The position numbers and the translations under genes were made by a program. From a virus (taxonomy: Duplodnaviria > Heunggongvirae > Uroviricota > Caudoviricetes): 13,881 bases of DNA. Below, one piece after another: positions 11,625-12,420 of the stretch. The notes beneath the pieces are model-generated. The model was not told where the DNA came from. It made no database searches and was given only the letters and a program-made list of their open reading frames with translations. Positions within the stretch are counted from its first letter, which is position 1. Each line of letters starts with the position of its first letter. Where the stretch lies: IMG/VR virus record IMGVR_UViG_2751185959_000007, one strand, 5' to 3'.

Positions 11625-11873
11625 CTCACTGAGATTAAAGCAAAGCGCAAAATTGCGCTGGCTACATCCCTCACATCTGAGGACTGTTAACCAGCAGGCC
11701 GGAATATATTCAGAAACTACGAAATTTTCGCAGTTTAATTACTCGTCAGCTTAATCGCTAACCCGCTCTGATATTTTCGGAAACCTCAATTTGAGGAAGT
11801 CGGCGAGGTAACTGTTTGATATTCCCGATAGCGCAAAGATGCGCGGTCGGGCAGAATGACCACCACCTCAATC

Positions 11874-11908
11874 GTGACGGAGAGTGACAACCAGTGACAC
11901 ACCGTGAC
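11874..11908. repeat. Four direct repeats of GTGAC at exact 10-bp spacing (11874, 11884, 11894, 11904)
   Basis: Counted directly in sequence; one helical turn phasing suggests a protein-binding array. Confidence 0.6.
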
Positions 11909-11961
11909 AAAAAGACGGTTTAACCGTTCATTAAAAATCGACGTGATTTTGTGCTTTCCGG

Positions 11962-11985
11962 ATGACGTGGCCAACGTCATTTTTT
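11962..11985 (+). terminator. Candidate intrinsic terminator: stem ATGACGT / ACGTCAT, loop GGCCA, then T5
   Basis: Stem 11962..11968 / 11974..11980, T-run 11981..11985; stem is moderately AT-rich. Confidence 0.5.
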
Positions 11986-12196
11986 AGCGAAAAATTCTGA
12001 TTAAGGTCACTGGCTGAACGGTCATAATGACCACGCAGACCATCGAGGCAACCATAGCGATCATCGTTACGGTTGGAGCTTTTCCGCCATTGGTGGAAAA
12101 GGTGCACATCTGGATCATCATTACGGTGATCAAGGGTATGTAAAACCCACCAGCCTGATTAAAGGTTAACCGGAAAAAAAATCCGGTAGCCCCGTT

Positions 12197-12210
12197 ATGG
12201 GGATCCCCAT
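12197..12210. repeat. Perfect 14-bp palindrome ATGGGGATCCCCAT
   Basis: Seen directly. One of several dyads in 11640..12420: CCTCAAATTTGAGG 11784..11797, GGTCATAATGACC 12023..12035, ACCGGA-A7-TCCGGT 12169..12187, near-palindrome 12049..12075. Confidence 0.55.
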
Positions 12211-12320
12211 ATCGACATTAACGCCCCTCATGAATTGGTGCGCTTCCCCCTGGAAAGATTACCCGCCTGTATATTTCTTGTGTCTATTTGTTCCACGTTG
12301 TTTCATACAGTGCACCGAAC

Positions 12321-12344
12321 GGTGTAGTTAATGGTGTAGTCAAT
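12321..12344. repeat. Tandem 12-bp direct repeat GGTGTAGTTAAT / GGTGTAGTCAAT (11 of 12 identical), about 80 bp beyond the phoQ stop
   Basis: Seen directly. Confidence 0.6.
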
Positions 12345-12420
12345 TTGCGATTTTTGGCACTTTTTCAATGAAAATTGTTTGATCGAATCAATGACTTGAT
12401 GTAGTGGTAAAAGGACATAT

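What the first reader, a model, noticed from the sequence alone, without database searches (positions are those of the whole stretch)
11640..12420. About 780 bp with no ORFs but dense dyad symmetry and phased repeats
The terminal protein-coding gap contains four GTGAC repeats at exact 10-bp spacing (11874..11908), a candidate terminator (11962..11985), four perfect or near-perfect palindromes, an A-loop hairpin and a tandem 12-bp repeat. This density of structure over such a length, with nothing longer than about 20 codons, is not typical of a simple intergenic spacer. It could hold a terminase-binding or cos/pac site, the att site, an origin, or one or more small RNAs.
Basis: seen in the sequence. 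Interest (0 to 1): 0.55.

Follow-up and report, generated by a model that had tools for sequence, protein, structure and literature searches.

The report
Non-coding right end of a satellite island
The 780-bp gap is the non-coding right end of a decaying phage-satellite island (PICI) inserted just after phoQ, made of exchangeable hairpin-rich blocks, a likely operon terminator, a four-repeat protein-binding array with no identified partner, and the integrase and excision-factor sites of attR, so it is mostly ordinary.

Summary
GTGAC occurs four times at exact 10-bp spacing (0 of 200 shuffles). Hairpins are about three times denser than chance. The terminator, the A-loop hairpin and the tandem 12-mer are at the stated coordinates. 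The "no ORF" claim is literally wrong, since ORFs reach 64 aa, but none keeps its frame in related islands.

All 780 bp belong to the island. Island-free E. coli match only from 12413. The window is a capsid-forming PICI after phoQ. This copy has a stop codon in its capsid gene and a 97-bp deletion at the terS start.

The att reading is right for about 135 bp:
- core GGACATATTT (12413-12422);
- integrase arm sites, GGTGTAGTYAAT x2 (12321-12344);
- TTGTT repeats at 10-bp spacing (12288-12303), which recur on the attL arm, near int, and before the capsid operon.

The origin reading is wrong; the island's own origin is at 3745-3990. The cos/TerS reading is not supported, because the blocks do not follow terminase type. 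Small RNAs remain untested.

The remaining 640 bp is a mosaic of non-coding blocks shared by PICIs that differ in integrase site, replicase and packaging genes. The GTGAC array is invariant in 18 distinct related copies. It looks like a cooperative protein-binding site, but no island protein co-occurs with it.

The parts
11343..11624 (+). Last ORF of the island (93 aa, phrog_1561, function unknown). It is the constant left neighbour of the non-coding region in every related island.
   Evidence: PHROGs E = 1.5e-55 and no Pfam match. It is found at the end of PICIs with different capsid and terminase modules and att sites. The model is a three-helix bundle with pLDDT 70 and no fold match.
11644..11659 (-). 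Hairpin AGCGCAAAATTGCGCT, followed on the minus strand by a T-rich tail. It is terminator-like for leftward transcription and abuts the stop codon of the 93-aa gene.
   Evidence: dG -7.8 to -10.3 kcal/mol.
11660..11846 (.). Block A, an inserted hairpin-rich block. It is bounded by a direct repeat of the gene's 3' end plus the GCGCAAA(A/G)(T/A)TGCGC hairpin (copies at about 11606-11660 and 11793-11846). It contains hairpins at 11669-11682, 11715-11737, 11784-11796 and 11831-11844.
   Evidence: The block is absent from L003, where the two repeat copies are fused. It is present in L001, L002, L004 and L005. Hairpins are listed. Fold z is -4.41 (minus) and -2.74 (plus).
11874..11908 (+). Four GTGAC pentamers at exact 10-bp spacing. 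This is a candidate cooperative protein-binding array whose partner is unidentified.
   Evidence: In the 18 distinct related copies of block B all four pentamers are invariant, while the spacers vary (GGAGA/GGAGG, AACCA/AGCCA, ACACC/ACGCC/ACGAC/ACACA). A nineteenth regex match, L100, is unrelated. Some islands have a fifth GTGAC copy starting about 10 nt after the stop codon of the 93-aa gene (L053, L078), or a degenerate GCGAC there (L039).
11873..12025 (.). Block B as an exchangeable unit: the GTGAC array, hairpin ACGGTTTAACCGT (11915-11927), the invariant ATTAAAAAT(C/T)GA, and the terminator.
   Evidence: It occurs as a discrete segment of about 150 bp in islands at yejO and clpS (L013, L014, L015). 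It is absent from L004, L008 and L009 and replaced in L005.
11962..11985 (+). Intrinsic-terminator-like hairpin (ATGACGT GGCCA ACGTCAT) plus T6. It is the likely end of the rightward late-operon transcript.
   Evidence: The right arm and T-run are nearly invariant (one distinct copy, L188, has ACGCCAT). The left arm carries non-compensated changes in L013 and L014 and in the L039/L015 group.
12014..12040 (.). Block-boundary motif CTGAAyGGTCATAATGACCACGCAGA, with the palindrome at 12020-12032. A degenerate copy at 11851-11872 precedes block B.
   Evidence: The same motif flanks alternative blocks in L005, L008, L009 and L015.
12049..12131 (.). Block C: three consecutive hairpins at 12049-12075, 12079-12101 and 12113-12131.
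   Evidence: Fold z is -3.98. In variants the loops change more than the stems, and hairpin positions are occupied by unrelated hairpins (C01, C06, C18). There are too few independent variants for a covariation test.
12117..12144 (-). Sigma-70 promoter-like element TTTACA-N16-AATGAT, pointing leftward into blocks C and B.
   Evidence: TTTAC(A/C)-N16/17-nATnAT is kept in 40 of 46 distinct variants, which fall into four different spacer/-10 sequence classes. Each -10 matches only 4 of 6, and expression is untested.
12146..12162 (.). Most widely conserved block, CCCACCAGCCTGATTAA, lying just upstream of the -35 of the leftward promoter-like element.
   Evidence: Invariant in alignment A1. There are 74 exact matches in IMG/VR contigs, nearly all at the same place near an island end.
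12169..12211 (.). A-loop hairpin (12169-12187) and palindrome TATGGGGATCCCCATA (12196-12211).
   Evidence: Both are conserved in most related islands. Their function is unknown.
12288..12303 (+). TTGTTC-N4-TTGTTT: direct repeats one helical turn apart. These are candidate operators for an excision-factor or AlpA-type protein on the attR arm.
   Evidence: The same TTGTT-N5-TTGTT arrays lie next to the arm repeats on the attL arm (L012, L157, L192), in the int-proximal regulatory region, and as three copies at window 4846-4870 just upstream of the capsid operon. Chance expectation is 0.03 per window.
12321..12344 (+). Tandem 12-mers GGTGTAGTTAAT and GGTGTAGTCAAT: candidate integrase arm-type sites of attR.
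   Evidence: The same tandem repeat is present in the same orientation on the attL arm (L012, L157, L192). It also occurs in islands at the tqsA, clpS and smrA sites. Islands at yejO carry a different tandem 12-mer at the same position.
12413..12422 (.). att core (identity block GGACATATTT). It overlaps the first two bases of the phoQ stop codon (12421-12423).
   Evidence: attL of NZ_CP027449.1, attR of the window and the empty site of BW25113 were compared.

Best explanation
The 780 bp are the non-coding right end of a capsid-forming phage-inducible chromosomal island (cf-PICI) integrated immediately after phoQ. The region has four functional zones.

1. 11625-11990 is the 3' untranslated tail of the rightward late (morphogenesis and packaging) operon. 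It ends at the intrinsic terminator 11962-11985. This is inferred from sequence.

2. Within that tail, four invariant GTGAC pentamers on one face of the helix form a cooperative binding array for a small DNA-binding protein. This is inferred from the anatomy. The partner is not the island's own excision or activator protein, whose candidate motif is TTGTT. It is not the island's replicase, and it is not a protein that co-varies with the block. It is therefore probably supplied in trans by a helper phage, another resident element or the host. Its likeliest effect is on the two converging transcription units that meet here.

3. 12014-12215 is a hairpin array next to a conserved leftward promoter-like element. 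It may give a small antisense transcript. This is a prediction only.

4. 12288-12422 is the attR arm. It holds excision-factor-type TTGTT repeats, tandem integrase arm sites and the core GGACATATTT. The core and the two-arm distribution are shown by comparison; protein binding is inferred.

Blocks A, B and C are exchangeable non-coding cassettes. Recombination at short shared boundary motifs shuffles them among PICIs regardless of their integrase, replicase or packaging genes.
For: Island identity and boundary:
- The gene content fits a cf-PICI: D5-type primase, capsid, S78 protease, portal, head completion, connector, HNH, P27-family TerS and TerL.
- Island-free genomes match only from 12413.
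- The core was defined from attL, attR and attB.

att arm:
- The tandem 12-mers and the TTGTT repeats occur on both arms. The 12-mer differs in islands at yejO.
- TTGTT arrays also lie before the capsid operon (4846-4870) and near int.
- This matches the published behaviour of excision factors that also regulate promoters through direct repeats one helical turn apart (PMC7498355).

Non-coding status: frames and lengths of every ORF break between variants, and there are no family matches.

Mosaic structure.

Terminator.

GTGAC array:
- It is significant.
- The pentamers are invariant while the spacers vary, in 18 distinct related copies.
- No island protein family or allele co-occurs with the block.

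Other functions are accounted for elsewhere: the island's own origin lies at 3745-3990.
Against: - No transcript, protein-binding or recombination data exist for any part.
- The terminator stem is weakened by uncompensated changes in several variants, namely L013, L014 and the L039/L015 group.
- Each -10 of the leftward promoter matches only 4 of 6.
- The GTGAC array lies 350-570 bp from the arm sites, at variable distance, so it has no obvious role in the recombination complex.
- Block B is missing from many apparently complete islands, so it is dispensable.
- The mosaic pattern is also what neutral recombination debris would look like.
- The island in this window is itself damaged, so some parts may no longer work.
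Confidence: 0.6

Rival explanations
1. The region encodes one or more small regulatory RNAs. One candidate is a leftward transcript from the promoter-like element at 12144-12117. It would run antisense through blocks C and B and overlap the 3' end of the late-operon mRNA. A second candidate is a 3'UTR-derived RNA ending at the 11962-11985 terminator and carrying the four GUGAC motifs.
For: - The promoter-like element is kept in four sequence classes.
- The 17-mer just upstream of its -35 is very strongly conserved.
- Terminator-like hairpins exist on both strands.
- Folding is stable: z is -3.98 and -4.41.
- Hairpin positions persist while their sequences are replaced.
Against: - Rfam finds nothing even at E up to 10.
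- The minus-strand hairpin at 11927-11915 is weak, above -5 kcal/mol, and was not reported.
- Compensatory changes are too few to test.
- No expression data were found in the papers searched.
- An exact 10-nt spacing with invariant pentamers and free spacers is what DNA recognition on one helix face predicts, not RNA pairing.
Confidence: 0.25
2. The GTGAC block imitates a lambdoid replication origin. The four GTGAC(A) repeats would bind the O-type or YdaU-type initiator of a helper or resident prophage. The island would then either be replicated by the helper or draw the initiator away from it.
For: - Phased GTGAC arrays with 10-bp spacing are common in viral contigs. They lie inside replication-initiator genes directly upstream of DnaB-like helicase genes (L030, L037), or inside a Rac-type ydaU-like gene with a DnaT domain (L016 family).
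- In the window the array is followed by an AT-rich stretch and a palindrome.
- No island-encoded partner was found.
Against: - In the origin-type arrays the AT- or pyrimidine-rich tract is on the other side of the array, and the array lies inside a coding sequence.
- No phage in the 50,697-record collection matches the block.
- Only the pentamer is shared, and the scan selected for it. The same scan also found GTGAC arrays next to portal and terminase genes (L017, L019).
- The island has its own complete origin.
Confidence: 0.12
3. The blocks are neutral leftovers: scars of cargo-gene exchange and duplications at the variable right end of PICIs. Hairpins would arise from palindrome-generating mutation, and there would be no present function beyond the att arm.
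For: - The distribution is mosaic and patchy, with sharp block boundaries at short repeated motifs.
- The same position holds cargo genes in other islands: a Q-family antiterminator in L008, hypothetical and PerC genes in L014, and a 100-aa ORF in L009.
- Block A is bounded by a duplication of the upstream gene's 3' end.
- The island in this window is decaying.
Against: - All four GTGAC pentamers are invariant while the spacers between them vary, across 18 distinct related copies.
- The 17-mer is invariant in islands that differ by 10-15% around it.
- Order and orientation are always B, then C, then the arm repeats.
- Hairpin excess is far above chance.
Confidence: 0.2
4. The region holds the cos or pac site, or another terminase-recognition site, of the island.
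For: - It lies just downstream of terS and terL.
- Phased repeats are a known form of small-terminase binding site. One unrelated GTGAC-type array in IMG/VR lies between an ORF and a terminase gene (L019).
Against: - Block B is absent or replaced in L005, whose TerS is identical to that of L001, which has the block (both WP_000113645.1). It is present in islands with a different TerS (L013) or with no annotated TerS (L015).
- There is no lambda-type cosN or cosQ like those of EcCICFT073.
- In HNH-dependent cos systems, cos lies between the HNH gene and terS. This rests on my own knowledge of HK97 and the staphylococcal cos phages.
Confidence: 0.05

Closest known systems
Capsid-forming PICIs (cf-PICI; prototype EcCIEDL933; bioRxiv 10.1101/2022.09.08.507074)
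   Same: The gene set is the same: own capsid, protease, portal, connectors, HNH, TerS and TerL, with no tail or lysis genes, in a size of about 12-15 kb.
   Different: - The paper text I could read does not describe the terminal non-coding region or map cos.
- This copy has a nonsense codon in the capsid gene and a 97-bp deletion at the terS start.
O-island 51 (z1835-z1857) of E. coli O157:H7 EDL933, the island at the same phoQ site
   Same: - It occupies the same attachment site downstream of phoQ. This is inferred from the locus-tag range and from my memory that phoQ is z1858.
- O157-type genomes (L004) share the 93-aa gene and blocks A, C and the att arm.
   Different: The O157-type island sampled (L004) has a lambda-like capsid, a decoration protein and a different TerS. 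It lacks the GTGAC block.
Lambda-type attP arms, and excision factors that double as regulators (186 Apl, P2 Cox, P4 Vis; PMC7498355)
   Same: - A core identity block, tandem arm-type repeats on both arms, and short direct repeats one helical turn apart next to them.
- The same repeats recur at a distant promoter.
   Different: - The motifs (GGTGTAGTYAAT, TTGTT) are specific to this integrase group.
- Binding is untested.
- The TTGTT repeats sit on both arms, not one.
EcCICFT073 cos1/cos2 (PMC6092414, PMC6739421)
   Same: It is a non-coding packaging signal carried by an E. coli PICI, with two copies in one island. The duplicated motif in block A superficially recalls that.
   Different: The EcCICFT073 sites have lambda-like cosQ and cosN (GGGCGGCGACCT). 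Nothing like them occurs in this region beyond chance.
Iteron arrays of lambdoid prophage origins (Rac-type ydaU; initiators next to a DnaB-like helicase gene)
   Same: Four or more GTGAC-containing repeats at 10-bp spacing.
   Different: - Those arrays lie inside the initiator gene, with the AT- or pyrimidine-rich tract on the opposite side.
- Here there is no ORF, and no sequence is shared beyond the pentamer.

Membership tests
attP/attR arm of a tyrosine-integrase element | A short identity block shared by attL, attR and the empty attB | tested here: met
   GGACATATTT is at window 12413-12422 and in attL of NZ_CP027449.1. The K-12 site reads GGGCATATTT.
attP/attR arm of a tyrosine-integrase element | Arm-type repeats, distinct from the core, on both arms and varying with the integrase group | tested here: met
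   GGTGTAGTYAAT x2 is at 12321-12344 and on the attL arms of L012, L157 and L192. A different tandem 12-mer occupies the same position in islands at yejO.
attP/attR arm of a tyrosine-integrase element | Excision-factor sites: short direct repeats about one helical turn apart next to the arm sites | tested here: met
   TTGTT-N5-TTGTT is at 12288-12303. L009 and L015 have three perfect copies. The motif also occurs on attL arms, against a chance expectation of 0.03 per window. The architecture follows PMC7498355.
attP/attR arm of a tyrosine-integrase element | Binding by Int, the excision factor and IHF, and recombination at the core | not testable with these tools
   This needs EMSA or footprinting and sequencing of excision junctions. 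The only IHF-like match is a 7-of-9 match that I read by eye at 12149-12162.
Lambda-type cos site (as in EcCICFT073) | cosN similar to GGGCGGCGACCT, with cosQ upstream | tested here: not met
   With up to 3 mismatches there are 13 matches in the window against 12.9 expected, and none lies in 11640-12420. The reference sequences come from the PMC6092414 supplement.
Small-terminase recognition site (cos/pac) of this island | Co-occurrence with the cognate TerS type | tested here: not met
   The block is absent or replaced in L005, whose TerS is identical to that of L001, which has it. It is present with a different TerS (L013) or with no annotated TerS (L015).
PICI replication origin | Iterons flanking an AT-rich stretch, adjacent to the pri/rep gene and matched to the replicase | tested here: not met
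   That structure is at 3745-3990, directly after the primase gene. Block B occurs with both D5-type (window) and RepA-type (L001) replicases.
Intrinsic (Rho-independent) terminator | A G+C-containing hairpin directly followed by a U-run on the transcribed strand | tested here: met
   11962-11985 on the plus strand has a 7-9-bp stem and T6. The strict consensus scan did not list it because the stem has too few G-C pairs. The stem is not maintained by compensatory change.
Cooperative operator array of excision-factor or Cox/Apl type | Three or more short (5-6 bp) direct repeats spaced one helical turn apart | tested here: met
   GTGAC x4 at 10.0-bp spacing, invariant in 18 distinct related copies. 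The criteria come from PMC7498355.
Cooperative operator array of excision-factor or Cox/Apl type | An identified cognate protein that also uses the same motif at att or at a regulated promoter | tested here: not met
   There is no other GTGAC cluster in the window or in complete relatives. The att arms and the late promoter use TTGTT instead. No protein family co-occurs with the block.
Known RNA families (Rfam 15) | A covariance-model match | tested here: not met
   There were no matches at gathering score for the window, and none at E up to 10 for 11300-12600. No tRNA or tmRNA was found.
Small protein or type I toxin gene | An ORF whose frame, length and hydrophobic character are kept in relatives | tested here: not met
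   By my own reading of the variant sequences:
- The 38-aa plus-strand ORF becomes 28, 43 or 19 aa in variants.
- The 49-aa minus-strand ORF (45 aa from its first ATG) becomes 28 or 13 aa, or changes frame.
- The indels are 5 and 2 nt long.
- There is no PHROG match.

The most novel reading that the evidence does not exclude
PICIs of several unrelated families would share a set of exchangeable non-coding cassettes at their right end. One of them, the invariant GTGAC x4-5 array placed directly after the last late gene, would be a landing pad for a protein that the island does not encode. That protein could be a helper-phage replication initiator or a Cox-like regulator. The cassette would then be a cis-acting device for sensing or exploiting the helper, or for titrating one of its proteins. 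It would be a non-coding counterpart of the protein-based interference systems known in satellites.
Probability: 0.15. Interest if true: 0.6.

Novelty: new member of a known kind. Interest (0 to 1): 0.33.

Why it matters
- It fixes the right boundary of the island. It also gives testable integrase and excision-factor motifs for a whole group of E. coli and Shigella PICIs inserted at phoQ, tqsA, clpS and smrA.
- The same TTGTT repeats on both att arms, near int and in front of the capsid operon suggest that one protein couples excision to late gene activation. That protein is probably AlpA.
- The terminal "spacer" of PICIs turns out to be a conserved, modular structure shared across satellite families. 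The GTGAC array is a compact candidate for contact between the island and a helper or the host.
- None of this changes the general picture of how such islands work.

Tried and rejected
- **RNA genes:** Rfam at gathering score and at E up to 10, and tRNA/tmRNA search, gave nothing.
- **Phage and plasmid similarity:** BLAST of the region against 50,697 phage records gave no match. Against plasmids there were only four partial hits.
- **Lambda-type cosN:** matches were at chance level.
- **Coding potential:** Pfam and PHROGs on every ORF of the region gave nothing. Frame conservation across variants fails.
- **The 93-aa neighbour as a possible binder of the array:**
  - The search for homologous proteins listed only proteins at least 88% identical.
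  - The exhaustive search found a narrow family of 37 clusters.
  - The AlphaFold model is a three-helix bundle at pLDDT 70, with no significant match in BFVD or PDB.
  - No conclusion follows.
- **Cognate protein by co-occurrence:** I compared 19 islands with block B against 22 without it, at four identity thresholds (35, 60, 80 and 92%). No family or allele tracks the block.
- **The island's own excision or activator protein as the GTGAC binder:** rejected, because the att arms and the late promoter carry TTGTT repeats instead.
- **Own origin:** rejected, because the origin is at 3745-3990.
- **Covariation of the block C hairpins:** only 11 distinct sequences and one two-sided change. That is too little to test, so I did not run the pair-count tool.
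- **The search for related loci in species-representative genomes:** returned only Shigella flexneri SFBU1023, which is 99.9% identical over the region, and one unrelated locus.
- **Literature:** searches for transcripts or small RNAs in the phoQ-adjacent island of O157 found none.
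Full report
**What the window is**

Pfam identifies the following genes:
- a D5-type primase/helicase (1994-3742);
- a major capsid protein;
- an S78 prohead protease (6283-6855);
- a portal (6857-8068);
- head-completion and connector proteins;
- an HNH endonuclease (8696-9136);
- a P27-family small terminase (9373-9684);
- a large terminase (9668-11329).

A 93-aa ORF of unknown function follows (11343-11624; phrog_1561). Next comes the 780-bp gap, and then phoQ on the minus strand (12421-13881). This is the gene set of the capsid-forming PICIs (cf-PICIs; bioRxiv 10.1101/2022.09.08.507074).

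The closest sequence found is Shigella flexneri SFBU1023, 99.9% identical over the region. About twenty complete E. coli genomes carry the whole region at 91-97% identity. In EDL933 the island at this site is O-island 51 (PMC8565820).

**Check of the observation**

- GTGAC occurs at 11874, 11884, 11894 and 11904. The spaced pattern matches three times against 0.01 expected (0 of 200 shuffles). This is the only cluster of the pentamer in the window.
- Perfect stem-loops number 18, against 5.8 +/- 2.5 in shuffles. Ten have stems of 6 or more, against 1.5 +/- 1.3 (0 of 500). This is the most hairpin-dense part of the window.
- Fold z-scores reach -4.0 and -4.4.
- The claim that nothing exceeds about 20 codons is wrong. 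ORFs of 38-64 aa exist. None keeps its frame or length in relatives, where the indels are 5 and 2 nt long, and none matches a family.

**Host or island?**

Island-free genomes, including K-12 derivatives, match the query only from window position 12413. I compared attL of NZ_CP027449.1, attR of the window and the empty site. This gives the identity block GGACATATTT at 12413-12422, overlapping the phoQ stop codon by two bases.

**The att arm (12288-12422)**

- The tandem 12-mers GGTGTAGTYAAT lie 70-90 bp from the core.
- The same pair, in the same orientation, sits on the attL arm between the core and int (L012, and the complete islands L157 and L192).
- It also occurs in islands inserted at tqsA, clpS and smrA. 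Islands at yejO have a different tandem 12-mer at the same position.
- This is the behaviour of integrase arm-type sites.

Directly to the left of the 12-mers are TTGTT repeats at 10-bp spacing (12288-12303).
- The same arrays occur on attL arms and in the int-proximal regulatory region.
- Three perfect copies lie at window 4846-4870, between a terminator and the capsid operon.
- Chance expectation is 0.03 per window.
- Excision factors bind short direct repeats one helical turn apart. Some, such as 186 Apl, P2 Cox and P4 Vis, use the same repeats at distant promoters (PMC7498355).
- I therefore read TTGTT as the operator of the island's excision/activator protein, probably AlpA. AlpA is encoded outside this window, so this step is an inference.

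**The rest is a mosaic of non-coding blocks**

I aligned six islands, ran local BLAST against all fetched loci, and inspected more than 80 copies from IMG/VR. This shows discrete blocks.

- **Block A (11660-11846).** It is bounded by a direct repeat of the 3' end of the 93-aa gene plus a GCGCAAA..TGCGC hairpin. It is missing from L003, where the two repeat copies are fused.
- **Block B (11873-12025).** It holds the GTGAC array and the terminator. It is present in cf-PICIs at phoQ and tqsA. It is also present in PICIs with a lambda-like capsid and a different TerS (L013, and L014 with no annotated TerS), and in one with a protease-capsid fusion and no annotated TerS (L015). It is absent from L004, L008 and L009 and replaced in L005.
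- **Block C (12014-12140).** It is a row of hairpins that begins with the motif CTGAAyGGTCATAATGACCACGCAGA. The same motif flanks block B and the alternative blocks.
- **The 17-mer.** CCCACCAGCCTGATTAA (12146-12162) is the most widespread element.

The order is always B, then C, then the arm repeats, near the right end of the element. In other islands the same position holds cargo genes: a Q-family antiterminator, PerC and hypothetical genes.

**What the GTGAC array is not**

- *Not the island's origin.* The origin is at 3745-3990, with CTGTCTACC / GGTAGAYA iterons around an AT-rich stretch directly after the primase gene. Block B also occurs with both D5-type and RepA-type replicases.
- *Not tied to the terminase.* L005 has the same TerS protein as L001 but lacks the block. 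L013 and L015 have the block with a different TerS or no annotated TerS.
- *Not a lambda-type cos.* There is no cosN like that of EcCICFT073.
- *Not the TTGTT-binding protein's site*.
- *Not linked to any island protein.* No protein family or allele within 13 kb upstream co-occurs with the block, in 19 islands with it against 22 without.
- *No evidence that the 93-aa neighbour binds it.* That protein models as a three-helix bundle with no fold match.

**What the GTGAC array most likely is**

The four pentamers are invariant in the 18 distinct related copies of block B, while the 5-nt spacers vary. A nineteenth regex match, L100, is an unrelated GTGAC-rich array. Some islands (L053, L078) have a fifth copy starting about 10 nt after the stop codon of the 93-aa gene. 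L039 has a degenerate GCGAC at that place. In L078 a hairpin plus T8 terminator follows shortly after the array.

Exact helical phasing with free spacers is the signature of cooperative DNA binding by a small protein on one face of the helix. A scan of IMG/VR shows that such GTGAC arrays are common.
- Several lie inside replication-initiator genes upstream of DnaB-like helicase genes, or inside a Rac-type ydaU-like gene.
- Others lie next to portal or terminase genes.

The origin-type arrays differ in context and polarity, and no phage shares the block. I keep "origin mimic" as a minor rival.

My best reading is an operator array for a protein supplied in trans. It sits in the 3' tail of the late operon, just before its terminator.

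**Possible transcripts**

The plus-strand hairpin and T6 at 11962-11985 form the first convincing intrinsic terminator after the operon. Its left arm carries uncompensated changes in several variants.

On the minus strand, TTTAC(A/C)-N16/17-nATnAT is kept in 40 of 46 distinct variants, across four different spacer/-10 sequence classes, directly downstream of the invariant 17-mer. A leftward RNA from there would be antisense to blocks C and B. Terminator-like hairpins for that strand lie at 12039-11996 and 11659-11644.

Rfam is silent, and I found no expression data. This remains a prediction.

**State of this copy**

The capsid gene (5086-6243) has an in-frame TGA at 5911-5913 where L001 has TGG. 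Relative to L001, the window also lacks 97 bp between HNH and terS, bounded by CCCCGCC microhomology. That deletion removes the terS start codon and ribosome-binding site, and part of the stretch where cos is expected by synteny. The island is probably no longer able to form particles.

**Verdict**

The region is the ordinary kind of thing found at the end of an integrative satellite: an operon tail, a terminator and an att arm. Two features are of moderate interest. One is the modular non-coding cassettes shared across PICI families. The other is an invariant phased array whose binding partner is unknown.

Noticed in passing
window 3745-3990: This is the island's own replication origin. Repeated CTGTCTACC / GGTAGAYA iterons lie on both sides of an AT-rich stretch, directly after the D5-type primase gene.
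   Followed up: partly
window 4846-4870: Three TTGTTC repeats at 10-bp spacing lie between a terminator (about 4808-4835) and the capsid operon, followed by a -10-like TATTTT. The same motif occurs on both att arms and near int in relatives. It is a candidate AlpA or excision-factor operator coupling excision to late gene activation.
   Followed up: yes
window 5911-5913 (capsid gene 5086-6243): There is an in-frame TGA where the intact relative L001 has TGG (Trp). The major capsid gene is interrupted.
   Followed up: yes
window about 9352-9353 (L001 11591-11687): A 97-bp deletion relative to L001 lies between HNH and terS, bounded by CCCCGCC microhomology. It removes the terS start codon, its ribosome-binding site and part of the G/C-rich stretch where cos is expected.
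   Followed up: yes
window 11585-11624 and homologues (alignment A4): The 93-aa protein has an invariant basic C-terminus, Y-x-W-K-K-P-E-R-L-R-R, even in homologues only 43% identical. The DNA encoding it is part of the repeat that bounds block A.
   Followed up: partly
L207 (NZ_CP049101.1), locus 2617-4259: A related PICI is inserted inside the portal gene of a lambdoid prophage, a helper-embedded satellite. It carries the same 93-aa gene and part of the terminal block.
   Followed up: no
L008 (NZ_AP042616.1), locus 3162-3554: A Q-family antiterminator gene sits between block A and block C of another island, which also encodes a ProQ/FinO-family protein. This shows that the region is a cargo insertion point.
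   Followed up: no
L017, L028, L049, L051 (IMG/VR): Long arrays of GGTGACAAAC / GGTGACATTCA repeats at 10-bp spacing lie directly upstream of a portal gene and often at contig ends. They are unrelated to the window and their role is unknown.
   Followed up: no
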